Positions 15,380 through 38,462 of a stretch of DNA of 64,000 bases are shown in pieces. The stretch is taken from positions 572,938 through 636,937 of the forward strand of contig CAWKCK010000018.1 of NCBI GenBank assembly GCA_963848135.1, given 5' to 3'. Positions within the stretch are counted from its first letter, which is position 1. Each line of letters starts with the position of its first letter. The position numbers and the translations under genes are program-made. The notes beneath the pieces were generated by a model. The model did no database searches. It was not told the DNA's origin and saw nothing but the letters and a program-made list of their open reading frames with translations. The stretch is from an uncultured delta proteobacterium (GTDB lineage Bacteria > Desulfobacterota > Desulfobacteria > Desulfobacterales > SG8-13).

Positions 15380-16400
15380 TTAGATCATTTTTTTCATAAT
15401 TAAATCATTTTGCAATTCATTCCCCATTCTGAATGGATGCCGTCCTGCTTTTTTAAATCTCATTTTTTTATAGAATGATATTGCATCTATATTTTTTTCC
15501 CACACACCTAACCATACATAATTCTTCTTCATCTCTTTCGCTAACTGAAGTGAAAATTTAACTAGCTTTTTACCTAGTCCTTTTCCTTTGAAGGTCTAGC
15601 AGACCGCAGCTTTTATCGATCGGCCGCGAGTAAATGCGACGGAAGGCCAGGTTCGATTTTGAACGAATGATGAAGAAGGCCGGCACCTGATGGAGCGTAT
15701 AGAGCCTTTTAAAATCCAGATAGCCGCGATCCATGATATAAATCGAACCGATTTCAGCCTCCAGCCGGTCAAGGATGTTTACCTCATGCACCTTGCCATC
15801 GGTAATGGCAATCATAGAGGGAATATTGCCGCGCAAGTCAAGCAGGGTATGTAACTTGATTGCCGCTTTTGTTTTCCGAAATTGCGCCCATGGGAATACG
15901 GAAAGACATAGATCTATGATGGTCGCATCCAAAGCATAGATGGTCTCTTGCAATTGCAGACCAAAATCTTCACCGGCATAGAGTCTGCGGGCTTCATCGA
16001 TCAGAATTTTGGCAAAGTCTCTGTAAATGCGCCAGTCACGTTTTTCATTCGCATCTGCTAATGTGCTTTTTGAGACTTTGCTGCGAATGCCCATGTGATA
16101 AATCTTGATATATATTCTTTCCATTTCAATTGAATCAGTATCATTGATATCTGATTGAGCTGGTGCATCATTGATCTTTAGATATCCAGCCAATTCATTC
16201 TCTGCATACAAAAAGTAGAATAAACTGTTTTTATTATTTAATTCCGCTAATAGCTTTTTCTTATTGAACGCTTCTTGAAGATAAGAATCTATAGTTTCTT
16301 GACTATTCATCGTTCGAAAAGTCTCATCATAGGTTTCGTACCCTATGGCTTGTAATTTATCCAATTCAGTTATCGAGCAAGGCCGTATATTGATATACAT
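15380..16400 (-). pseudogene. PaiA-like GNAT acetyltransferase interrupted by an IS4 transposase fragment
   Basis: N-part ends MERIYIK; C-part TFKGKGLGK..VWLGVWEKN..FYKK..MI* lies at 15380-15597. Confidence 0.88.
15598..16102 (-). mobile_element. 505-bp internal IS4-family transposase fragment, no ends
   Basis: YHMGIRSKVSKSTLADANE..ALDAT..KLHTLLD..MDRGY. Confidence 0.85.
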
Positions 16401-16576
16401 AAACCGATTTCTCCCAGAATCTGTGATATATTGAGACTATAAGGAACTTGTGGGGTGGGTCAATAATTTTGCTTGCTTGATAATCATTTAAAAGGCACCT
16501 CCTAATCGCAAATGACACAGCGATTCGTTATAAAGGGTTAACCCCAATCATAACCCTATAACGAAGGAGGTGCCCT

Positions 16577-17596
16577 ATGGAACTGTACGCCGGTCTGGAT
16601 CTTCATTCAAGAAATACCTACATCGGAATCATGGACGATGCATTGAACCGTGTCTTCAAAAAACGTGTATCCAATGACCTTGACCAAATTCTTCATACTT
16701 TAAAACCCTTCAAAAAACGATTAAAGGGATTTGTTGTAGAGTCCACCTACAACTGGTACTGGCTCGTAGATGGCCTCATGGATGCGAGATATGGCTCTGC
16801 ACACTTGGCCAACCCGTCGGCAATCAAACAATACGAAGGGCTAAAGTACAGTGACGATCAGCATGACGCCTTTTTTCTGGCCCAACTTCTCATACTCGGT
16901 ATTTTGCCCGAAGGCTACATTTACCCAAAGCAACATCGCCCGGTGCGGGACCTGGCACGCAAACGGATGTTTTTAGTCCGGCACAAGACCGCGAACATCT
17001 TGAGCCTGCAATCGCTCATTCAAAGATGCTGTGCAGTAAAAATAAGCACCAGTGACATCCGAAAGATAAACGTCGAAGCATTGGAAAGGTGGCTAAAAGA
17101 AGAGTACCTGATTTTCTCTGCTCAAACCAGTTTGGATACAATCAACTTTCTGAAGCAGAAGATTAAACATTTAGAGAAGGCGATCATACAGAGAGTCAAA
17201 CTCAATAAAGGGTTCAGGCAACTGCTGACAATACCCGGTATCGGTAAAATTATGGCTATGACTATCATGCTGGAAGTGGGTGACATCAATCGTTTTCCAA
17301 AGGTCGGCAATTTTGCTTCCTACTGTCGGTGCGTGCCATCCAAGCGGTTGTCCGACGGAAAAAGCAAGGGGTGTGGCAATCGTAAAAACGGCAATCGCTA
17401 CCTGAGCTGGGCCCTCACTGAAGCCGCTCAATTGGGCCGTCGGTATAATGAACAGTTTAGACGATACTATAACCGCAAGGTTGCTCAGGCCAATACCAGC
17501 CTGGCGACCAAAGCGCTGGGCAACAAACTGGCCCGCATCTGCTACTATATCATGAGAGATCAGGTTCCCTTTCGTGAGGAGCTTCTTGCGCAATAG
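16577..17596 (+). CDS. IS110-family recombinase/transposase
   Basis: GLDLH, VEST and KYSDDQHDA (DEDD motif); TIPGIG; SDGK; GNRYL. Confidence 0.95.
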   Translation: MELYAGLDLHSRNTYIGIMDDALNRVFKKRVSNDLDQILHTLKPFKKRLKGFVVESTYNWYWLVDGLMDARYGSAHLANPSAIKQYEGLKYSDDQHDAFFLAQLLILGILPEGYIYPKQHRPVRDLARKRMFLVRHKTANILSLQSLIQRCCAVKISTSDIRKINVEALERWLKEEYLIFSAQTSLDTINFLKQKIKHLEKAIIQRVKLNKGFRQLLTIPGIGKIMAMTIMLEVGDINRFPKVGNFASYCRCVPSKRLSDGKSKGCGNRKNGNRYLSWALTEAAQLGRRYNEQFRRYYNRKVAQANTSLATKALGNKLARICYYIMRDQVPFREELLAQ

Positions 17597-17900
17597 TTTG
17601 GGACTGCAGCGGTGATCCTTTGCTATTGGTGGTTAAAATCCCTATTGCTTGGTTGGCCACCGCTGCTCTCCCTACAAAATAGATTCAGGCGGGTGTCCGC
17701 TTTTTCGATCTGCCCTTGTCATAAGCTCGCAATGGCTGGCCCGAAAGGAGCCCTATCTCTTGTGACAACCCAATTGGCTTTGACAAGGTACCGATTTTTT
17801 CTGGGGTCTGGTTTCGGACCAGGGGCTTTAGATATTCTCTCTTTGGCCTTGATCCTGATGGGTGCCTGTTAGCAGATTAAGTGACGCTGCATAGCAAACA
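17597..17900 (+). ncRNA. Putative seekRNA / bridge-RNA region
   Basis: Stem gcagcggtg/caccgctgc (17606-17666) encloses target-matching segments; donor-like ATGGGTG at 17858. Confidence 0.55.
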
Positions 17901-18116
17901 AAAAGAAATTTCGGGAGCAGGTAAAAAAAATTGGACGAACGTCGAGCTGAATTTTGTTCCTGCAAAAAATATACCCCTTTTGCGATGGCGTGGTGTTTTT
18001 TGTTGACGGAAGCCTTTTAATGGGTGCCACAGGCACAACTATCGGAAATCATACCACCTGTTACGATATGATCTGGCTATCACAGTCTTTTCAATGATTC
18101 CTGAACTTTCCTTAGA

Positions 18117-19974
18117 GGCAAGTAGCGCGGAGGAGTCTCACCCCTACGCCCTCCAAGAACCGTACGTGACAGTCTCCCGTCATACGGCTCCTACTGTCCA
18201 GCCGAAGGCCGGAAGCCAAATCCCCAGGATGCGAGCAGTCTGGGTTCCCGACGGGCTATACGTCCCAACCAATGGGCCGCCCTTCGCCAATGACCTCGCA
18301 GTCTTTTGTATTTCCGCATGGCCCAACGTACCAATGCATTTTGAATCTGACGTAAGATGGGATAAAGTGCTGTTTTGCGAAATTTGCCATAGTAATTCAA
18401 CCAACCTCTAACCACGGGGTTGATTCGTTTGGCAATATCCTCCAAAGAAGCGGAACTCCACAATTGCAATTTCCACCCTCTTATTTTTGCACCCATCTCT
18501 TTGACGGCTGATTTGCTGACCGCTGGTGTAAAACCCACAAAGCAATTCCGCCCCTTACACAAACGAGCACGAAATTCATAGCCGAGAAAATCAAAACTCT
18601 CGTGCATGTAACTTCCCGGGCGTGTGGCGTTCTTACAATAGACAATCTTCGTCTTCTGCGGACTCAATTTTAACTTACACCGCGCCAGCCGCAGTTCAAT
18701 GGCTCTCAACATAAATTTTGCTTGAAATTCCGTACGGCAATGCACAATGATGTCATCCGCATACCTCGCAAATACAGCAATCGGATGGCTTACTCTCATC
18801 CATTCATCAAACACATGGTGAAGAAAAATATTGGCCAGCAAGGGGCTAATTACACCCCCTTGGGGTGTGCCCTTTTCTCTTTCGATTAGGCTGCCATCTG
18901 CCAGCTGTGCTGGAGCTTTTAGCCACCTCTCTATGTAGAGCAATATCCACCTGCTATTCGTATGTTTCCTCACTGCATGTAACATCAGATTGTGGTCAAT
19001 TTCATCGAAAAACCCTTGGATGTCTAAATCCAACACCCAGCCATACCTCCAGCACCGCTTGCGAACCACGGCCACCGCATCAAGTGCCGATTTGCCGGTT
19101 ATATAACCATAAGAGTCCGCATGAAATATCGGTGCCACTTGTGGCTCCAGATACATCTTGACCACCATTTGCGCCACACGGTCCGAGACAGCTGGTATAC
19201 CCAACCTTCTGGACCGCCCATCACGCTTGGGAATATCTACCGTACGAACTGGCGGTGGGAAATAGCTTCCCGAGGACATGCGATTCCAGACTTTATAAAG
19301 ATTGTCTTTGAGATCGACCTCAAAGTCTTCAATCGACTGCCCATCGACGCCCGCCGCACCGCGGTTTGCTTTTACCCGACAAAACGCCTCCCAAACGGCA
19401 TGCTTGGAAATACTATACGGCTTTGTTTTAGTCACCGGTTCCTCCCATCTCTGGTTGACCTTGTCACTAAAACCGGACAGCACAACCCCTTCGCTCCATC
19501 TGCATTACACAGACTTCATCACTACTTCGGGTTGTTCCGCCCCCGTGTCCCGCATCGGTACTCTCACGCTTGTGGGTCCGCCACTTGCGTTTCTCCCTTA
19601 ACATCGAGACGACAGGTTCCCACGTTCCATACAAAAGCCTGAATCAAGGTCATGCCATCTTTATGCCGGACGCCGCCCAGACAGTAAGCAGGTGGCCTCT
19701 GGGCTTATCCTGGGATTCTGCTAGTACCCCAGTTTTGACGTCATCTCTGCCTTTTCGACACCTCAGCAATGGTTCGCTCGCGCTCATCTCCTTGATTCAT
19801 ACCTGATCCCGTCAAGCGAGACCTTTTCCTTAACGCTCACCACCCTGGCTCTTTACCAGCGCAGCTTAAGGTGGTTTGAAACCTGCTCCTGCAAGCCGGT
19901 TCCGAGGGGCCTACCCTCATCTTTTGTACAGTTACACACACTCTATTTATATTTAAAGTGCGCTCGTGGCACAC
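18117..19974 (-). mobile_element. Group II intron (RmInt1-like, probably bacterial class D)
   Basis: 5' GTGTGC at 19974; domain V GAGCCGTATGACGGGAGACTGTCACGTACGGTTC; domain VI ends ...CTACTTGCC. Confidence 0.92.
18191..19435 (-). CDS. ltrA: Group II intron reverse transcriptase/maturase without an endonuclease domain
   Basis: GAAGVDG, GTPQGGVISPLLANI, RYADD, FDFLG and GWLNYY motifs; GTG start after GAGG (ORF open to 19483). Confidence 0.93.
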   Translation of the reverse strand: MTKTKPYSISKHAVWEAFCRVKANRGAAGVDGQSIEDFEVDLKDNLYKVWNRMSSGSYFPPPVRTVDIPKRDGRSRRLGIPAVSDRVAQMVVKMYLEPQVAPIFHADSYGYITGKSALDAVAVVRKRCWRYGWVLDLDIQGFFDEIDHNLMLHAVRKHTNSRWILLYIERWLKAPAQLADGSLIEREKGTPQGGVISPLLANIFLHHVFDEWMRVSHPIAVFARYADDIIVHCRTEFQAKFMLRAIELRLARCKLKLSPQKTKIVYCKNATRPGSYMHESFDFLGYEFRARLCKGRNCFVGFTPAVSKSAVKEMGAKIRGWKLQLWSSASLEDIAKRINPVVRGWLNYYGKFRKTALYPILRQIQNALVRWAMRKYKRLRGHWRRAAHWLGRIARREPRLLASWGFGFRPSAGQ

Positions 19975-20160
19975 TAGCAGCAAGCGTGAGCCGGTCAGAC
20001 CTTATGTTTTGTTTACAGTATCTGGGTTTTCAGGGGATCGATTCTATACAGATATTATTCGGCTAAATTAATTGTGAGACTAAAATCACCAAGAATTGTA
20101 TTACCAACGACAGAAGCAAATCCAGCACTAGCTTTGCCTATACTACTAATGATATTTCTA

Positions 20161-21126
20161 TCATTTTTTTCTAAGTTTTTTTCTAATGCCAAATAAGCCA
20201 ATTATCCCGGAACCCAAAAGCCATAAGGCTCCTGGAATAGGTACCTGTGAAGTTTCTGTCAAAAAAACACCTGACGCAGATTCAAAGGTAATTCCTTCAG
20301 GAACTGTAATAGAAAATTGTCCAGTATTCATAAAATTAGCATAGCCTTCATACACAGTAACTGAGAGGGAACCGCGAATTGAAAGATCTAATGGATCCCA
20401 TCTTGCACTGGGATTTAAGTTAATTAACCATGATGGAGGACCAGCACTGGGATCCATCCATATCGTTCTACTCAAAGTGGCCGCTCCATCTGATATATCA
20501 TCACTCCACTCAGTCGGGGAATTTGTACCTGTGATGAAACCATCGGGGCCTCCTATTGCGTAATTGATCATAGTGGAACCACCCACACCGTTAGGACTTA
20601 AAAAGCCATCTACCACCCATTCCAATTCTACTGGAAAAGGTTCGGTTGCACCGGAGAAGTGCAAAGTATCAAGCAATTCCGAACTAGCAGAAAAGGCAGC
20701 ACCCCAAGAGTTTATATCTACTGGCCCGTCTCCAAAATCGTAATAAACTTTTCCTGTTGAATCTGCACTGACTCTCAATTTTCCTGTAGAAGCAAAAACA
20801 CCTGCTGAAGCATTTCCGTCGTACTCAACCCAAGCATAACCTGGGTTCGCAACCCAATAGTTATATGAACCTGAGAGACTATATGATGCGGTCGCCATTC
20901 CTGAACCAATGTTCGTGTTAGCTTCACTTATATTACCACCTGCATCATTCGGGTATGTATATACGCCAGCTGTAGCAGTTGCCCTATTATAATCAGTAGG
21001 GAAAATATATGAATGAGCGTTTATTGGTAAGATAAAAATTGTAACCGATAAAAAGAATGTAATACATAGAAGAGATATTCTACGCTTTAATGCAAATTCC
21101 TTAATATGATATGATTCCTTAGCCAT
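20161..21126 (-). CDS. VPLPA-CTERM (PEP-CTERM-like) exosortase substrate
   Basis: Signal peptide; C-terminal VPIPGALWLLGSGIIGLFGIRKK. Confidence 0.85.
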   Translation of the reverse strand: MAKESYHIKEFALKRRISLLCITFFLSVTIFILPINAHSYIFPTDYNRATATAGVYTYPNDAGGNISEANTNIGSGMATASYSLSGSYNYWVANPGYAWVEYDGNASAGVFASTGKLRVSADSTGKVYYDFGDGPVDINSWGAAFSASSELLDTLHFSGATEPFPVELEWVVDGFLSPNGVGGSTMINYAIGGPDGFITGTNSPTEWSDDISDGAATLSRTIWMDPSAGPPSWLINLNPSARWDPLDLSIRGSLSVTVYEGYANFMNTGQFSITVPEGITFESASGVFLTETSQVPIPGALWLLGSGIIGLFGIRKKLRKK

Positions 21127-21224
21127 AGATACCTCCTCTGAGTATAATGACTCTAAACTTTGAAAAAAGTTCAGGTAAAGGACTAAGTATTCTGTTAACA
21201 AAAAATGCAAGACCACCCAGATGT

Positions 21225-21305
21225 TAGGCAACCCGACTATCTATCAGCTTTGCTAAGACCCTTGGTTTTCCGTTCTGGCTTTTTAGCAAGGTTGGCTTTA
21301 TCTGT
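21225..21305 (-). promoter_or_regulatory. c-di-GMP-I (GEMM-I) riboswitch, degenerate
   Basis: GATAAAGCCAACC..ACGGAAAACC.AGGGTCT..GATAGTCGGGTTGCC, upstream of the VPLPA-CTERM gene. Confidence 0.7.
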
Positions 21306-21550
21306 TCTGCAAAATAGCTGCAAAAACCATGCTAATTGAAAGAGTATTGGTTGGGTAAATATAGAAATAATATAAGCAGGTTATTTAATGTGCTACATGG
21401 TAGCAGTATTGAATTGGGAATAAAATTATAGAAATTTATGAAGAGAGTTCCACAATTGTAGTAGCTTTTCAGTATCTGCACAATTGCAAAATTTCAGATA
21501 CGTACAGATAAATCACAAAAATTTTAGCGCTCCAAAATATTCGCCTTTCT

Positions 21551-21744
21551 TGATAATCATCTAAAAGGCACCTCCCAATCGCAAAGGGTATTGCGATTCG
21601 TTATAAAGGGTTAATCCCAAACATAAACCCTATAACGCAGAAGGTGCCTCATGGAACTGTATGCCGGTCTGGATCTTCATTCAAGAAATACGTACATCGG
21701 AATCATGGATGATGCATTTAACCGTGTCTTCAAAAAACGTGTGG
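21551..21744 (+). mobile_element. Truncated second IS1111 copy: left end plus ~31 codons
   Basis: Homologous to 16478-16670; MELYAGLDLH starts at 21651. Confidence 0.88.
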
Positions 21745-21847
21745 CCAATAGCGTAACAATTTGTAATTTAGGCAAATATGTAAATATTGTCTGACTATCT
21801 CAAGCGGATCGACCAGATGATAGCTCAAAAATCATAGCAAATAGAAA
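21745..21847. repeat. ~140-bp intergenic repeat, copy R4 (its TTCTTG lies at 21547-21552)
   Basis: CCAATAGC..GTCTGACTATCTCAAG..ATAGCTCAAAAATCATAGCAAATAGAAAAA; CCA to TAGCA distance is 90 nt. Confidence 0.7.
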
Positions 21848-22129
21848 AATTGTCGCCAGTATTACATGGCCACAACATATTGTCGTTCTGTCAGAATATA
21901 AAAGCGTGGTATTCATTCAAAATACCCCGCTTTTCCTAATTCCTCCACGAATTAAAGTATAGCAGGCTAGTGGACTCGGTGTTTGAACCTTTTTGCGGAG
22001 TTTTAACCGGTTGCGACACACCTTTTTTTCTACCGATGAAAGTATCCATTCATCTCATCACATTTGCCAAATTTTTGAAATTCGGTAATCTATCACCCAG
22101 TCAGGGTACAAATAAACTGAATACTTTTA

Positions 22130-22865
22130 GGGTCTTGACTAGGACAGCGTAACCAAAATACGCTCAATCCCAGTCATGGCAATAAAAAACAAGTATATAA
22201 AGCGTTCAAAGATTACAGAAGCCAAATTCAGGCAATTAGTTAAGTTATTCGCACATGACCTGGATGCACAAACGATTGCCTCTTTAACAAACCTTAATCG
22301 TAATACCGTTAACCGTTACCTGCGGCTCATTCGCAACCGCATAGCCGAGGTATGTGAAACCCAATCGCCGTTTAAAGGCGAAATCGAAGTCGATGAATCA
22401 TACTTCGGTGGTAAACGCATCAAGGGCAAACGCGGCCGCGGTGCTTTTAAGAAAACCCCTGTGTTTGGTATTTTCAAACGTGGCGGCAAAGTCTACACTG
22501 AAATCGTTCCAGATTGCGCTAAAGCCACTTTGCAAGGCATTATCAGGGGACGCGTCGACCCCGATAGCGTTATCCATTCAGATCGCTGGCGCGGTTACAA
22601 CGGACTGGTTGACCTGGGTTACAAAAAGCATTACCGCGTCAGCCATGGTACCAACCAATTTGCCAAGGGGCACAGTCACATCAATGGTATTGAATCCTTC
22701 TGGGCATATGCCAAACACCGTTTGATGAAGTTCCATGGCATTGCTGAATCGACTTTCTACCTACATCTGAAAGAATGCGAATTTAGATTCAATAACCGTA
22801 ACAAAAATATTTACTTATTATTGCTTAAAATGTTTAGAAATAGGCCTCTGTTCTAGTCGAGTCCC
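22130..22865 (+). mobile_element. IS1595-family element (IS1016-like), intact
   Basis: 15-bp imperfect IRs gggtcttgactagga / ttctagtcgagtccc; 8-bp TSD TACTTTTA. Confidence 0.92.
22176..22856 (+). CDS. IS1595-family transposase
   Basis: EVDESYFGG, IHSD, HINGIESFW and LKECEFRFN motifs. Confidence 0.95.
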   Translation: MAIKNKYIKRSKITEAKFRQLVKLFAHDLDAQTIASLTNLNRNTVNRYLRLIRNRIAEVCETQSPFKGEIEVDESYFGGKRIKGKRGRGAFKKTPVFGIFKRGGKVYTEIVPDCAKATLQGIIRGRVDPDSVIHSDRWRGYNGLVDLGYKKHYRVSHGTNQFAKGHSHINGIESFWAYAKHRLMKFHGIAESTFYLHLKECEFRFNNRNKNIYLLLLKMFRNRPLF

Positions 22866-35198: not shown

Positions 35199-35374
35199 TG
35201 TAGTAATTCAGACTTGATCTGACAGTTACCGATTTTGAGGCGGTGTCTGTCAGCTCAAAATCAGGCTACAAACTTTTCTTGCCACTAGCGGTAACAAAAT
35301 GAGAATTGACCAATAGAGGGTAACCGGTCATTATCTGTCTGATTTTTCTGCAACTTTCAGAAAGGAGGCAGAAA

Positions 35375-36541
35375 ATGGCCAGCGTTGATATTTTATACTC
35401 AAACCCTAACCACGTCCACGGTTGCCACCCGCAGAGCCGCCAAAGTCATTTAGAATCTATTGATTTAACCTCACAGCACCAAGTCACCCAGGCCGCACTA
35501 AACTCGTTTTATCCATCAAGTGCAAGCCGGACCGATAGCCGCGGCGTCACCCTGGGCAAGGTTTTTCGCCGGCTTAATCGCTGCAGCTACCCGGGTAAAC
35601 AGCCACTGACCGAATGGATACTTTATAAATACCGGCGCGGCTGCAAGCCGGTAACCCTGGCCACCAATTGCGGCTTTATTGTGCCCTTTTTGGTGTTTAT
35701 CGGCCAAATGGGCAAGACCGGTGTCGAGCAGATCAACAAGAAAGATCTGGAAGCCTACATCGAACGCCAGCAAGACCGCGGTCTAAAACCGCTGACCATT
35801 GATGGCACTTTAAGGAGCATCTACGCTTTTATCGGCTATCTGGTTGAAGCTGATCTTTTGCCAGCCGATCTGCTGGTAAAAAAAATCCGGATCCAGGTGC
35901 CCAAGCCGCTGCCCCGGGCGATGGATCCGATCGATAGCCAGCGTCTTTTGGCCACGATTGACAACATCCGTGACCGGTCCCTGATCCTGTTGCTGCTTCG
36001 AACCGGAATGCGCATCGGCGAGCTTTTAAACACCCGTGTCGATGATCTCAATCTGGTCGACCAGAAGATCTTCATTATGATCGGAGAGAAAAATCGTCTG
36101 GGCCGCGCGGTGTGTATCAGCGATGATGCCTGCAGCGCTTTAAAGGCTTGGCTGCGCATCCGCGATAGCAGTCAGAAGTATTTGTTCTATGGGCTAAGGC
36201 GTCAACCGTTGGGGTATTCGCGTTCGCGTGACATACTGCGATCCTATCTTAAAAAGGCCGGCCTTGCTCACAAAGGATATACGTTGCATTGCCTGCGGCA
36301 CACCTTTGCCACCGATCTTTTAAATGCCGGCATGCGCCTTGAGTGTCTGCAGCAGTTGCTGGGGCACAGCAGCCTGGAGATGACCCTACGCTATGCCCGG
36401 CTGACCGATAAAACCCGGGAAGAAGAATACTATAAAGCCATGTCACGCATCGAAAAAGGAGCCGTCGATGAACATCACCGATTCGATCATCAACTACCGC
36501 CGATATTTGAAAAGACGCAACTGTTCAGCCAGCACGGTTAG
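35375..36541 (+). CDS. Tyrosine recombinase A
   Basis: TGMRIGE, K, HCLRH, LGH..RY: full catalytic set. Confidence 0.92.
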   Translation: MASVDILYSNPNHVHGCHPQSRQSHLESIDLTSQHQVTQAALNSFYPSSASRTDSRGVTLGKVFRRLNRCSYPGKQPLTEWILYKYRRGCKPVTLATNCGFIVPFLVFIGQMGKTGVEQINKKDLEAYIERQQDRGLKPLTIDGTLRSIYAFIGYLVEADLLPADLLVKKIRIQVPKPLPRAMDPIDSQRLLATIDNIRDRSLILLLLRTGMRIGELLNTRVDDLNLVDQKIFIMIGEKNRLGRAVCISDDACSALKAWLRIRDSSQKYLFYGLRRQPLGYSRSRDILRSYLKKAGLAHKGYTLHCLRHTFATDLLNAGMRLECLQQLLGHSSLEMTLRYARLTDKTREEEYYKAMSRIEKGAVDEHHRFDHQLPPIFEKTQLFSQHG

Positions 36542-37355
36542 AAGTTATTTGAGCCACCTGAAGCAGTTAATCATCTGGCTCGATGAGCCCATCGAGCTCG
36601 TCGGTCATAAAAAAATTACTTCCTATGTCGATTATCTTCTCGGCAATAAACTGGCGCCGAAGACCATCAACTGCCACCTGGGAAGCATGCACAGCTTTTA
36701 CAGTTATCTAGTCGATCAAGAAGAACTTCAGATCACCAATCCGATCAAAAAGGGCTACCACCTGCGCCTGGCCCGGCCTTTGCCAAAACACCTGCAGGAT
36801 GAGCAGGTGGCCAGTTTGTTCAGCATAATAAAAAGTCGTCGCGATCGGGCCATGTTCATGCTGATGCTGCGCTGCGGTCTAAGGGTGAAAGAAGTGGCCA
36901 ACCTGACTATCGATGCCGTCGACTGGCGCCGCAGACGCTTGTATGTCTACCATGGCAAAGGCGATAAGGACCGGGTCGTCTACATCAGTGATGACACCTA
37001 CGCTGCGCTGGTTGCCTATGTAAAACAACGATTGGGCAGTCGCGTGAAGAAGATCTTTCTGGTAGAAAAAGGCGTCTACAAGAGCAAGCCCTTATCTACA
37101 CGCGGTATCCGCAAGCGTATAGAGTACTACTCGAAAAAGTCGGGTGTAAACGTGTCCTGCCATCAGCTCAGGCATACGATGGCCACCCAGCTGCTCAACG
37201 CCGATGCGGATCTGGTGACTATACAGGATCTTTTAGGCCATACCCGCATCAAGACCACCCAGCGCTATTGCCGGGTGTGCAACCTGAAGGTTCAACGTGA
37301 TTACTTTAAGGCGATGGAGGTGGTGATGAGACGCGCTGTAGGTTCGTCCCCCTAA
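36468..37355 (+). CDS. Tyrosine recombinase B
   Basis: CGLRVKE, GKGDKDR, HQLRH, LGH..RY. Confidence 0.92.
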   Translation: MNITDSIINYRRYLKRRNCSASTVRSYLSHLKQLIIWLDEPIELVGHKKITSYVDYLLGNKLAPKTINCHLGSMHSFYSYLVDQEELQITNPIKKGYHLRLARPLPKHLQDEQVASLFSIIKSRRDRAMFMLMLRCGLRVKEVANLTIDAVDWRRRRLYVYHGKGDKDRVVYISDDTYAALVAYVKQRLGSRVKKIFLVEKGVYKSKPLSTRGIRKRIEYYSKKSGVNVSCHQLRHTMATQLLNADADLVTIQDLLGHTRIKTTQRYCRVCNLKVQRDYFKAMEVVMRRAVGSSP

Positions 37356-37444
37356 ATTCTCTTGACAAAGGCACAATTATGATAAATCATAGCAATACTT
37401 AACCTACTAATATAAATTGAAAAATCAGAATTTGTTACCGCTAG

Positions 37445-38462
37445 CTTGCCATATATTCTTCCCATCTTCAAGTGTTTCCATCGGTGTTCGTCCGCAACAC
37501 ATCTTACCTTGATGTGTTCGCTCGTGGTTGTATTTAAATAGCCAATCATCCAGATCAGCCTGTAGCGTTTCGATATCCCGGTATATTTTCTTGCGGAATG
37601 TCACCTGATAAAAATCCTGCAGAATGGTCTTATGAAAGCGCTCACAGATTCCGTTGGTTTGCGGAGATCTGACCTTGGTTTTAGTGTGGTCGATATCATT
37701 GATGGCCAGATACAGCTGGTAATCATGGGTTTCGGCTTTGCCGCAGTATTCTGTGCCTCTGTCCGTCAGGATTCGAAGTAAAGGCAACTGGTGCTCTTCA
37801 TAGAAGGGTAAAACCCGATCGTTTAGCAGATCGGCGGCAGTTATAGGTGTCTTGGTGGTGTAAAGGTTGGCAAAGCCCACCTTGGCATAGGTGTCGATAA
37901 AAGTCTGTTGATAGATCCGTCCTACGCCCTTTAGTGTACCCACGTAGAATGTATCTTGCGAACCCAAATAGCCCGGATGGGCGGTCTCGATTTCACCGCA
38001 CGCCTCATTGTCCTGCTTTTTGCGCTCAAGGGCCTGGATCTGGCTCTCGGTGAGGATCAGCTTCTCCTTGGCCATCTTTTCCTCAAGTGCCCGTAGTCGA
38101 TCCTTAAAACGGCCCAACCGATGCCGTAGCCAGACACAGCGGACACCGCTGGGGGAAATAAAAACGCCTTTTTTTCTCAGCTCGTTGCTGGCCCGGACCT
38201 GGCCGTGGGCAGGTTCTTCGACGGCATATTCAACAACGGCCGCTTCAGTCTGTTCATCGATCCGATTCTTTAAATTGGGACGGCGGCGATCTTTGCTGAT
38301 CAGAGCGTCTACACCACCCTCGTCAACGGCGGCTTTGTATCGGTAAAACGTATCTCTGGACAGCCCCATAATACGACAGGCTTAGGATACATTACCCAGT
38401 TCTTCGGCCAAATTTAAAAGTCCAATCTTGTGTTTGATGATGGATTTGTTACCATGCAGCAT
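37445..38462 (-). pseudogene. IS481 transposase with a nonsense codon near the N-terminus and a split C-terminus
   Basis: MLHGNKSIIKHKIGLL..NVS*ACRIMG; QDTF, TDRGTEY and TNGICERFH motifs. Confidence 0.88.

What the first reader, a model, noticed from the sequence alone, without database searches (positions are those of the whole stretch)
16478..18026. IS1111 guide RNA appears programmed against the repeat's CTTG^CCA motif
Seen: both IS copies sit at CTTG^CCA (empty sites ttgcttg|ccacagg and tttcttg|ccaatagc). Inside the 3' non-coding stem 17606-17666, GCTATTGG (17622-17629) is the reverse complement of the right flank CCAATAGC of R4, and TTGCTTG (17645-17651) equals the left flank plus core. 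ATGGGTG (17858) equals the element's own right end plus core. Known: IS110/IS1111 elements use bridge/seekRNAs with bipartite guides. Inference: this element is an RNA-guided specialist for the unnamed repeat.
Basis: partly seen in the sequence, partly recalled or inferred. Interest (0 to 1): 0.8.

Follow-up and report, generated by a model that had tools for sequence, protein, structure and literature searches.

The report
RNA-guided insertion sequence targeting a cassette repeat
This is a mobile DNA element of the known IS1111 type whose own small guide RNA carries two short stretches matching the repeat it always inserts into, so it is a clear natural example of a known mechanism and not a new one.

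Summary
Window 16480-18026 is an IS1111-type insertion sequence: a 339-aa DEDD transposase, 8-bp subterminal inverted repeats and a 430-nt 3' non-coding region.

The genome holds 8 full copies. Three of them are identical or differ by 1 base yet sit at different sites. All are inserted in one orientation at CTTG^CCA, the start of a ~65-nt hairpin repeat with 59 empty copies.

A covariation-supported stem-loop four bases after the stop codon holds, in its internal loop, GCTATTGG (antisense to CCAATAGC) 5' of TTGCTTG (sense). This is the order published for IS1111 seekRNAs.

In this element alone the match is only modestly above chance (136 of 5000 shuffles). Across 37 de-duplicated relatives the guides covary with their own flanks (0 of 20000 permutations).

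The third match, ATGGGTG, is part of a 9-mer, ATGGGTGCC. It copies the right end, a TG core and the first two target bases in 40 of 50 relatives, in four covarying classes. It is probably a donor-side guide.

Verdict: a new member of a known kind. Earlier notes of this scan (e1-2378121) had already described the target repeat on other DNA of this genome.

The parts
16480..18026 (+). IS1111-type insertion sequence, 1547 bp counting one copy of the TG core. TG also stands at 16478-16479, so TG flanks both ends.
   Evidence: 8 full-length copies at 92-100% identity in the genome. The boundaries come from the alignment of the copies with their flanks and from empty sites.
16476..16479 (+). Left target half, CTTG. 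The last two bases (TG) are the presumed core.
   Evidence: CTTG in 9 of 10 left junctions. In 59 empty repeats, positions -4 to -1 are C51 T55 T54 G56.
16489..16496 (+). Left subterminal inverted repeat TAAAAGGC, 9 nt inside the left end (ATAATCATT).
   Evidence: It is the reverse complement of GCCTTTTA at 18012-18019. The pair changes together across relatives: TAAAGGGC, TAGTAGGC, TAGCCGGC and others.
16494..16574 (+). Hairpin pairing left-end GGCACCTCC(T) (16494-16503) with the ribosome-binding site AGGAGGTGCC (16565-16574). It probably blocks translation of read-through transcripts.
   Evidence: Fold of 16478-16600: -39.5 kcal/mol, z -4.37, 0 of 200 shuffles fold as well.
16577..17596 (+). 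Transposase gene, 339 aa (DEDD/RuvC-like N-terminal domain plus the IS116/IS110/IS902 C-terminal domain).
   Evidence: ORF. PF01548 39.2 bits and PF02371 72.5 bits. NF033542 'IS110 family RNA-guided transposase' 189.5 bits against a cut-off of 140. IS621 transposase 8wt6 at E 3.2e-8. The ORF is intact in 7 of 8 copies.
17600..17672 (+). Target-binding stem-loop, equivalent to the short seekRNA: a basal stem, an internal loop holding both guides, and a small apical hairpin.
   Evidence: RNAalifold consensus on 18 sequences: 18 pairs, 6 with compensatory changes. 98.8% of cells paired against 39-55% when slid. In distant relatives 17 of 18 pairs have compensatory changes (alignment fitted to the model). 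Covariance model R1 scores 103 bits here and finds the loop in 56 of 65 relatives' loci.
17619..17631 (+). 5' guide (T match). GCTATTGG at 17622-17629 is antisense to the right target half CCAATAGC. The following UG could wobble-pair with the TG core.
   Evidence: It equals the modal base at positions +1 to +8 of 59 empty repeats. It covaries with the right flank in relatives. Copies L006-L008 differ from L001 at 4 of the 5 bases 17619-17623.
17645..17651 (+). 3' guide (B match). TTGCTTG is a sense copy of the left target half including the TG core.
   Evidence: It covaries with the left flank in relatives: TGTCGTG in L026, whose flank is TGTCGTG, and TTTTTTG in L025.
17714..17825 (+). Conserved middle domain. 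A long stem (CCTTGTCA 17714-17721 with TGACAAGG 17781-17788) encloses a multiloop that holds a second left-flank-like segment, CTATCTCTTG (17753-17762). It is followed by the hairpin CTGGGGTC...GACCAGGGG (17801-17825).
   Evidence: The sequence is conserved in all close and many distant relatives. Sense left-flank matches in this domain exceed permuted pairings: 151 against 126.3, sd 5.3, reached by 1 of 20000. The structure comes only from the single-sequence fold.
17847..17866 (+). Conserved block CCTTGATCCTGATGGGTGCC. The 9-mer ATGGGTGCC (17858-17866) copies the right end (ATGGG), the core (TG) and the first two target bases (CC). It is a presumed donor-side guide with two target-matching positions.
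   Evidence: The 9-mer is identical to the element's own right junction in 40 of 50 relatives, in 4 classes (..GTGAC..GTGCC..ATGTC..GTGCA). The last two bases equal the first two flank bases in 47 of 50.
18003..18008 (+). TTGACG, a -35-like hexamer. In a circle junction it would lie 17 nt upstream of G+ATAAT (the core G plus the left end), giving a junction promoter.
   Evidence: Read from the sequence. TTGAC is kept at the same place in the right ends of relatives. A junction promoter of this kind is reported for ISEc11 (PMC11187229, section read). Circle formation was not tested here.
18012..18026 (+). Right subterminal inverted repeat GCCTTTTA (18012-18019), the terminal ATGGG and the TG core.
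18027..18095 (+). Body of the target repeat copy that this insertion split from its CTTG (CCACAGGCACAACTATCGG...GATCTGGCTATCACAG).
   Evidence: Near-identical uninterrupted copies exist, preceded by ...CCTTG (contig C1, 70422) or ...GACAG (contig C17, 1244313). An nhmmer profile finds 68 copies in the genome.
21553..21744 (+). 5' fragment of a second copy (about 190 bp, 90% identical). It sits at tttcttg| and abuts a repeat copy starting CCAATAGC (21745-21752).
   Evidence: (L011).

Best explanation
Window 16480-18026 is an active or recently active IS1111-type insertion sequence.

Proposed mechanism. Transcription through the 3' non-coding region gives a seekRNA/bridge RNA, probably driven by a promoter formed when the ends join in a circle. 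Its first stem-loop (17600-17672) presents two guide segments in an internal loop. GCUAUUGG pairs with the top strand of the right target half, CCAATAGC. UUGCUUG pairs with the bottom strand of the left target half plus the TG core. The DEDD transposase bound to this RNA then recombines the circle junction (..ATGGG-TG-ATAATC..) with CTTG^CCA, leaving TG on both sides.

Why it lands in the repeat. The guides spell the consensus of a ~65-nt hairpin repeat that separates gene units in several arrays of this genome. The element therefore lands almost only there, in one orientation.

Second block. A second conserved RNA block (17847-17866) carries a sense copy of the right end, the core and two target bases. 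It most likely binds the donor's right end. The two extra bases can pair only once the right end is joined to the target, a handshake-like role.

Shown here: the element's ends, its insertion sites, the conserved structure, and the covariation of guides with flanks. Inferred: that the RNA is made, that it binds the transposase, the circle intermediate, and the chemistry.
For: Family. PF01548 and PF02371. NF033542 at 189.5 bits against a cut-off of 140. IS621 transposase at E 3.2e-8. 8-bp subterminal inverted repeats, and a long non-coding region downstream (430 nt) against about 97 nt upstream.

Activity. 7 of 8 copies have an intact 339-aa ORF. L002, L003 and L004 differ by 0-1 nt of 1550 yet lie at three different sites.

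Site. CTTG in 9 of 10 left junctions and CCA in 10 of 10 right junctions. 59 empty repeat copies, 40 of them with exact CTTGCCA. The guide-predicted target equals the modal base at every position from -6 to +8.

Structure. 18 pairs, 6 with compensatory changes, and the guides unpaired in the consensus. 98.8% of cells paired against 39-55% in slid controls. 17 of 18 pairs compensatory in distant relatives.

Covariation of guides with flanks. Examples: L016 guide CCAGTAC with flank CCAGTAC; L063 CCACTAT with CCACTAT; L028 CCATAA with CCATAA; L026 TGTCGTG with TGTCGTG; L025 8-nt anchored matches on both sides, extending to CAACAGTCTC and TTTTTTG. Over 37 de-duplicated loci the summed anchored match is 391 against a permuted mean of 255.8, sd 9.0, reached by 0 of 20000. 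In the close clade of 10 loci it is 105 against 74.7, sd 6.1, reached by 1 of 20000.

Order and place of the matches are as published for ISEc11, ISPa11 and ISKpn4 (PMC11187229, sections read).

Right-end copy. 40 of 50 loci have an identical 9-mer, in four classes.
Against: In this element alone the two matches are not strongly above chance (136 of 5000 shuffles).

The actual insertion sites match the guides only partly beyond CTTG|CCA. The window's own copy sits at CCACAGGC, a contiguous match of 4, so tolerance for mismatches must be assumed.

The cognate target is the best or joint-best among all targets for only 19 of 37 loci.

The permutation tests do not correct for relatedness of the elements.

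No guide antisense to the left end (a right-donor guide) was found at any consistent place.

There is no direct evidence that the RNA exists as a discrete species. Metatranscriptome contigs of relatives cover the region but cannot show ends or strand.

No Rfam family matched the region.
Confidence: 0.88

Rival explanations
1. The short matches are chance. The stem-loop is only a transcription terminator or stabiliser for the transposase mRNA, and the protein alone recognises the hairpin repeat.
For: The single-element test is weak: 136 of 5000 shuffles reach the observed 15 nt. The target is itself a hairpin with invariant CTTGCCA, which a protein could read.
Against: The loop segments change together with the flanks in relatives (0 of 20000 permutations; examples). 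The guides sit in a conserved internal loop, not in the stem. The published IS1111 members need this RNA for transposition (PMC11187229, sections read).
Confidence: 0.04
2. The copies did not transpose into the repeat. Instead the repeat with an IS in it was copied around, by cassette shuffling or duplication, so shared flanks reflect descent and not targeting.
For: The repeats lie in arrays next to tyrosine recombinase genes, so repeat-bounded units could move.
Against: Left flanks are unrelated beyond about 7 nt, and right flanks belong to different repeat subtypes. The near-identical copies L002-L004 (0-1 nt apart) have different flanks on both sides. Uninterrupted counterparts of single occupied repeats exist.
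Confidence: 0.03
3. The internal ATGGGTGCC block is not a guide. It is a protein-binding or structural motif, or a relic of an older right end, and its likeness to the right junction comes from common descent.
For: Only four sequence classes exist, so there were few independent changes. 6 loci keep ATGGGTG although their right end reads ATGGGCG, and L025 keeps it against ATGGGCA. The preceding CCTTGATCC does not follow the subterminal repeat.
Against: The G-to-A change in the right end of the L068 clade is mirrored in the internal copy. The two bases after it follow the first two flank bases in 47 of 50 loci. Those two bases are target DNA, not element DNA, as the empty sites show.
Confidence: 0.3

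Closest known systems
IS1111-group elements with characterised seekRNAs (ISEc11, ISPa11, ISKpn4, ISPst6; Siddiquee et al. 2024, PMC11187229)
   Same: A 339-aa DEDD transposase, the same length as that of ISEc11. Subterminal inverted repeats. A long non-coding region downstream of the gene. The guide RNA stem-loop starts just after the stop codon. The top-strand match lies 5' of the bottom-strand match, and the two overlap or abut at the insertion point. Insertion is orientation-specific. A promoter-like arrangement would form at a circle junction.
   Different: The protein is distant from named members: the best plasmid-borne relatives are 45-50% identical, one labelled ISGsu4 family, and IS5075 is 26% identical over the C-terminal part. 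The target is a different sequence (CTTG^CCA of a cassette-array repeat). Nothing was tested experimentally here. I could not compare RNA sequences, because the figures and supplements showing them are not held.
IS621 bridge RNA (Durrant et al. 2024, PMC11208160; Hiraizumi et al. 2024, PMC11208158)
   Same: An internal loop with one guide per DNA strand. A 2-nt core is repeated at both junctions. A second RNA part resembles the donor. Extra positions can pair only after strand exchange (handshake guides).
   Different: The RNA lies at the 3' end of the element and the guide order is reversed. The donor-side segment found here is a sense copy of the right end, the core and two target bases. In IS621 the handshake bases sit beside the antisense guides and read the left side. 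No antisense guide to the left end was found.
IS1111-attC group (Post and Hall 2009, seen only as reference 24 in the reference list of PMC11208160; ISKpn4/ISPst6 target attC per PMC11187229)
   Same: An IS1111-type element that specialises on the hairpin recombination or junction site separating gene cassettes. Here too a group II intron sits beside the same repeat, as group IIC-attC introns do at attC (title and abstract of PMC3001079, listing).
   Different: The repeat is not shown to be attC. No integron integrase scores above its cut-off (best 93.5 bits against 265), and the conserved ends are CTTGCCA...CAAG rather than the attC core sites (that motif comparison is from my recall).

Membership tests
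IS110 family, IS1111 group | DEDD (RuvC-like) transposase with the IS110-type N- and C-terminal domains | tested here: met
   PF01548 at 7.6e-10 and PF02371 at 3.8e-20. NF033542 at 189.5 bits, cut-off 140. The IS621 alignment places S259 opposite the serine of IS621's ESG motif. GLDLH, VVESTY and SDDQHD motifs are conserved in relatives.
IS110 family, IS1111 group | Subterminal inverted repeats of 7-17 bp | tested here: met
   TAAAAGGC at 16489-16496 and GCCTTTTA at 18012-18019, 9 and 7 nt from the ends. The two arms change together in relatives.
IS110 family, IS1111 group | The longer non-coding region lies downstream of the transposase gene | tested here: met
   430 nt downstream (17597-18026) against 97 nt upstream (16480-16576).
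IS110 family, IS1111 group | Site- and orientation-specific insertion without a long target duplication | tested here: met
   All 8 full copies are at nCTTG|...|CCA in one orientation. Only TG is repeated. Empty sites read CTTGCCA.
seekRNA / bridge RNA guided element | Structured RNA in the non-coding region with a segment complementary to each target strand, top-strand match 5' in the IS1111 type | tested here: met
   Covariation with flanks.
seekRNA / bridge RNA guided element | The RNA is expressed and bound by the transposase | not testable with these tools
   Metatranscriptome contigs from 4 runs (88-99% alike, so relatives) cover 17521-17676 and other parts. Contigs show no ends, strand or level, and DNA carry-over is not excluded.
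seekRNA / bridge RNA guided element | Circular intermediate with a junction promoter | tested here: inconclusive
   TTGACG (18003-18008), 17 nt, then G+ATAAT would form a promoter when the ends join. No circle junction read was seen or sought.
Two-loop bridge RNA (IS621 type) | Donor-binding loop with a guide for each donor half | tested here: inconclusive
   A sense copy of the right end plus core is present and covaries. No antisense copy of the left end was found at a consistent position in 50 loci.
IS1111-attC group | The target is an integron attC site | tested here: not met
   No match to TIGR02249 above its cut-off in the genome (0 of 1; best a 57-residue piece at 93.5 bits). No Rfam family on the repeat. 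The earlier scan note e1-2378121 also reads the repeat as non-attC (unchecked note).

The most novel reading that the evidence does not exclude
In this large IS1111 clade the guide RNA carries, besides the target loop, a sense copy of the product junction 'right end + TG core + first two target bases'.

In most members the left-flank guide is likewise followed by the first two bases of the left end (AT). Handshake-type pairing would then sit on the sense guides, mirror-wise to IS621. If so, retargeting such elements would require changing these two bases too.

Together with a second left-flank-like segment in the middle domain, and with tandem target loops in some relatives, this would be an undescribed architecture of IS1111 bridge RNAs.

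A further point: the element is one of three unrelated mobile elements that home to the same CTTGCCA repeat of a non-integron cassette system. The others are a group II intron and a two-recombinase unit.
Probability: 0.45. Interest if true: 0.6.

Novelty: new member of a known kind. Interest (0 to 1): 0.4.

Why it matters
The result gives a clean natural data set for a mechanism described only in 2024. There are dozens of related elements from sediment bacteria whose loop segments and insertion sites change together, including near-identical copies caught at different sites in one genome.

It shows which positions are read (about 7 + 8 nt around a TG core) and how much mismatch is tolerated in nature.

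It points to a conserved donor-side segment with two target-matching bases. This could matter for reprogramming IS1111-type systems, which are less well understood than IS621.

It marks the CTTGCCA hairpin repeat of the cassette-like arrays as a hotspot for mobile elements. That helps to define the repeat's functional edge.

The mechanism itself is not new.

Tried and rejected
Rfam scan of the window at gathering thresholds: 4 hits, none in the IS or the repeat.

Covariance model R1 over window 16000-22500 with filters off: no second loop of the target-loop type in this IS. The only other hit above noise is the same stem read on the minus strand.

Search for an antisense copy of the left end (right-donor guide), allowing up to 3 mismatches in 10 nt, in 50 loci: no hit at a consistent position.

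My first regex for the internal right-end copy missed it in distant relatives, and I wrongly noted it as absent (note). Searches corrected this.

Antisense right-flank matches in the middle domain: no signal (141 against 137.2, sd 4.4; 4521 of 20000 permutations reach it).

Repeat profile against the 80 relatives' loci: 1 hit, in L063, 750 nt from the junction. The same repeat family is therefore not shown to be the target elsewhere.

Integron reading of the arrays: TIGR02249 has no hit above its cut-off.

Expression: RNA-library contigs cover relatives of the IS, but nothing can be said about a discrete small RNA.

I considered fetching IS5075 from plasmids to test whether the right-end copy is general, and did not do it. 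It is only 26% identical over 41% of the protein, so a negative result would say nothing.

I tested whether variant guides within the genome track their own sites. L007 and L008 fit their variant better and L006 fits the other, so the result is inconclusive.
Full report
WHAT IS THERE

The stretch 16478-18026 holds a 339-aa ORF (16577-17596). It carries both IS110-family domains (PF01548 and PF02371). It also passes NCBI's model 'IS110 family RNA-guided transposase' (189.5 bits, cut-off 140).

By sequence it reaches the solved IS621 transposase at E 3.2e-8, and that alignment puts S259 opposite the serine of IS621's ESG motif. The structural paper names S241, with D11, E60, D102 and D105, as catalytic in IS621 (passages read). 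The two-residue numbering offset between the two is my inference.

The best plasmid-borne relatives are only 45-50% identical, one of them labelled ISGsu4 family. IS5075 is 26% identical over the C-terminal part.

ENDS AND INSERTION SITES

The genome holds 8 full-length copies (92-100% identical) and 3 fragments. Aligned with their flanks, all 8 read nCTTG|ATAATCAT(C/T)TAAAAGGCACC ... GCCTTTTAATGGGTG|CCA.

Left flanks are unrelated beyond about 7 nt. Right flanks belong to a repeat family.

Uninterrupted copies read ...CTTGCCA..., so the element is 16480-18026 and TG is repeated at both junctions. TAAAAGGC and GCCTTTTA are subterminal inverted repeats.

Including the fragments, the left junction is CTTG in 9 of 10 (CCTG in L010) and the right junction is CCA in 10 of 10.

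Seven of 8 copies keep the full ORF; L005 has an early stop. L002, L003 and L004 differ by 0-1 nt of 1550 yet sit at three different places. The element has therefore moved recently, each time to the same motif.

THE TARGET

An nhmmer profile finds 68 copies of a ~65-nt repeat. They cluster in same-orientation arrays with spacings of 1-3 kb.

Of the 65 copies whose start is covered, 59 are empty and 6 are IS-adjacent. In the empty ones, -4 to -1 is CTTG (51, 55, 54 and 56 of 59) and +1 to +3 is CCA (55, 55 and 56). 40 of 59 have exact CTTGCCA.

CTTGCCA itself occurs 18 times in the window against 9.3 expected, sd 3.2.

The repeat can fold: CTTG...CAAG and ATAGC...GCTAT, read by eye. No integron integrase scores above its cut-off.

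Earlier notes of this scan on other DNA of the same genome describe these arrays as a non-integron cassette system with tyrosine recombinases (e1-2378121). I saw the arrays and the recombinase genes myself but did not test that reading further.

THE GUIDE LOOP

Four bases after the stop codon lies a stem-loop, 17600-17672. On 18 sequences (three variants from this genome and 15 relatives of 61-90% protein identity) RNAalifold gives 18 pairs, 6 of them with compensatory changes. Both matched segments stay unpaired in an internal loop below a small apical hairpin.

98.8% of cells are paired, against 39-55% when the partners are slid.

A covariance model built from this alignment finds the loop directly after the transposase gene in 56 of 65 more distant loci. 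There 17 of 18 pairs show compensatory changes, although that alignment is fitted to the model. The refutation 'the matched segments fold into stems' therefore does not apply.

GCTATTGG (17622-17629) is antisense to CCAATAGC, and TTGCTTG (17645-17651) is a sense copy of the left half with the core. The antisense segment lies 5' of the sense one. This is the order Siddiquee et al. report for ISEc11, ISPa11 and ISKpn4, whose 82-96-nt RNAs also map just downstream of the gene (sections read).

The target these guides predict, TATTGCTTG|CCAATAGC, is the modal base of the 59 empty repeats at every position from -6 to +8.

IS IT MORE THAN CHANCE?

For this element alone, only modestly. 136 of 5000 dinucleotide shuffles of the non-coding region reach the same summed anchored match of 15 nt, when any of the 9 observed flank pairs is allowed.

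The relatives decide it. Examples:
- L016: guide reads CCAGTAC, flank CCAGTAC.
- L063: CCACTAT and CCACTAT.
- L028: CCATAA and CCATAA.
- L022 (by eye): CCATTAcGT against CCATTAtGT.
- L026: the left guide is TGTCGTG and the flank is TGTCGTG, so the 'CTTG' itself has changed.
- L025 (61% protein identity): 8-nt anchored matches on both sides, with entirely different guides (CAACAGTCTC and TTTTTTG).

Over 37 loci de-duplicated at 93% loop identity, the cognate sum is 391 against a permuted mean of 255.8, sd 9.0 (0 of 20000). In the 10 loci of the close clade it is 105 against 74.7, sd 6.1 (1 of 20000).

Against this reading:
- The cognate site is the best or joint-best for only 19 of 37 loci.
- The mean contiguous matches are short: 4.8 and 5.7 nt, against 3.7 and 3.1 for non-cognate pairs.
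- The permutations ignore phylogeny.
- I dropped 7 loci whose ends my script mis-set or could not read (L022, L027, L046, L053, L056, L058, L084), and L018, whose left end starts AGA.

Within the genome, copies L006-L008 differ from L001 at 4 of the 5 bases 17619-17623, the distal part of the 5' guide. Two of the three sit at sites that fit their own variant better.

THE THIRD MATCH

ATGGGTG at 17858 would arise by chance in 217 of 5000 shuffles. It is, however, part of a block, CCTTGATCCnGATGGGTG-NN-TGG, that is present in nearly all relatives.

Its 9-mer equals the element's own right junction (last five bases, two core bases, first two flank bases) in 40 of 50 loci. There are four classes:
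- ATGGGTGAC: 22 loci.
- ATGGGTGCC: 10 loci, including this element.
- ATGGATGTC: 7 loci. Here the right end itself has the A.
- ATGGGTGCA: 1 locus.

NN equals the first two flank bases in 47 of 50. The empty sites show that these two bases belong to the target.

The exceptions are 6 loci whose right end reads ATGGGCG while the internal copy keeps TG (one of them, L086, also differs in NN), plus L025, L029, L033 and L063.

I read the block as a donor-side guide. Its two extra bases can pair only with the joined product, which resembles the handshake guides of IS621 (passages read) but sits on the sense guide. There are few independent changes, so I hold this at about even odds.

No antisense copy of the left end was found. 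The middle domain holds a weaker, significant sense match to the left flank (151 against 126.3, sd 5.3; 1 of 20000) and none to the right flank.

Durrant et al. state that in many IS1111 orthologues the putative donor-binding bases lie in a multiloop (passage read). The figure showing them is not held, so I cannot say whether this block is what they drew.

In the listings and the passages read I saw no description of a right-junction copy in IS1111 RNAs. That is not proof that none is in print.

OTHER FEATURES OF THE ELEMENT

The left end's GGCACCTCC pairs with the ribosome-binding site (z -4.37, 0 of 200 shuffles).

TTGACG at 18003-18008 would stand 17 nt from G+ATAAT in a circle junction. 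This is the kind of junction promoter reported for ISEc11 (section read).

EXPRESSION

Metatranscriptome contigs of four runs cover relatives of the element (88-99% alike), including 17521-17676. Contigs show neither ends nor strand, so this is not evidence for a small RNA.

VERDICT

The element is a new member of a known kind.

The added value is threefold: natural guide-target covariation in a large, uncultured clade; a candidate donor-side guide with two target-matching bases; and the finding that its target is the junction repeat of the cassette-like arrays.

Supplementary files and figures of the cited papers were not seen. They may hold RNA sequences and donor-guide drawings that bear on the novelty of the right-junction copy.

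Noticed in passing
window 35278-37451: A unit with two overlapping tyrosine-recombinase ORFs (35375-36541 and 36468-37355). It has inverted ends, CTAGCGGTAACAAA (35285-35298) and TTTGTTACCGCTAG (37431-37444). CTTGCCA flanks it on both sides (35278-35284 and 37445-37451). That heptamer is the one the IS targets. This fits the earlier scan note e1-2378124.
   Followed up: partly
window 18105-19918 (- strand): A group II intron lies directly beside the IS-occupied repeat copy. Its parts are Rfam domains at 18116-18192 and 19801-19918 and a 430-aa reverse-transcriptase ORF at 18191-19483. The same 31-nt intron end recurs 94 nt after the start of another repeat copy (contig C18, 452817/452911) and once more on contig C1. 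The intron may also home to this repeat.
   Followed up: partly
L009 (own genome, contig C18, 407659-408087): A fragment made only of the non-coding region, from the guide loop to the right end, without a transposase gene. It sits at ...|CCAGTACC, and its 5' guide reads CCAGTA, matching that flank. It may be a solo guide-RNA module, as reported for extra ssr9 copies of ISPpu9 (abstract of PMC12288879, listing).
   Followed up: partly
L038, L039, L042, L066, L067, L083: These relatives carry two target-loop-type stem-loops in tandem, with different guide segments. In L039 it is the second loop whose 3' guide, TAAGATGTG, equals the element's own left flank (by eye). This may be a way to hold two target specificities.
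   Followed up: partly
window 21553-21752: The truncated copy ends at ...AAAAAACGTGTGG and runs straight into CCAATAGC. The full element has CGTGTATCCAATGACC at that point, which resembles the target (TCCAAT). The deletion may therefore stem from recombination at an internal pseudo-target. The junction letters do not fit a simple exchange at TG.
   Followed up: no
window 16450-16470 and left flanks of about 14 repeat copies in the genome: A motif, GGTCAATACTCA, lies 8-12 nt left of CTTG in a subset of repeat copies. Many distant relatives of the IS also have GTCAA(G/A) about 10 nt left of their insertion point. Its reverse complement holds TTGACC, a -35-like hexamer facing the next gene.
   Followed up: no
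window 28021 (- strand); L007 and L008 flanks: A second repeat type also starts (A/T)CTTG|CCA but continues ...TTTTGACCTGATGCC...CACCCCAAGATG...TCTGCGAAACTTATGATA. It hosts two IS copies.
   Followed up: no
window 15570-16400 (- strand): This ORF starts like an acetyltransferase-type cassette gene and continues as a DDE transposase-like sequence (read by eye from the translation). It is probably a gene unit disrupted by another IS. No domain search was run.
   Followed up: no
L016 2938-2996; L062; L084: Tandem duplications of the last 15-44 nt of the right end, so that CCTTTTAATGGGTG occurs twice, in some relatives.
   Followed up: no
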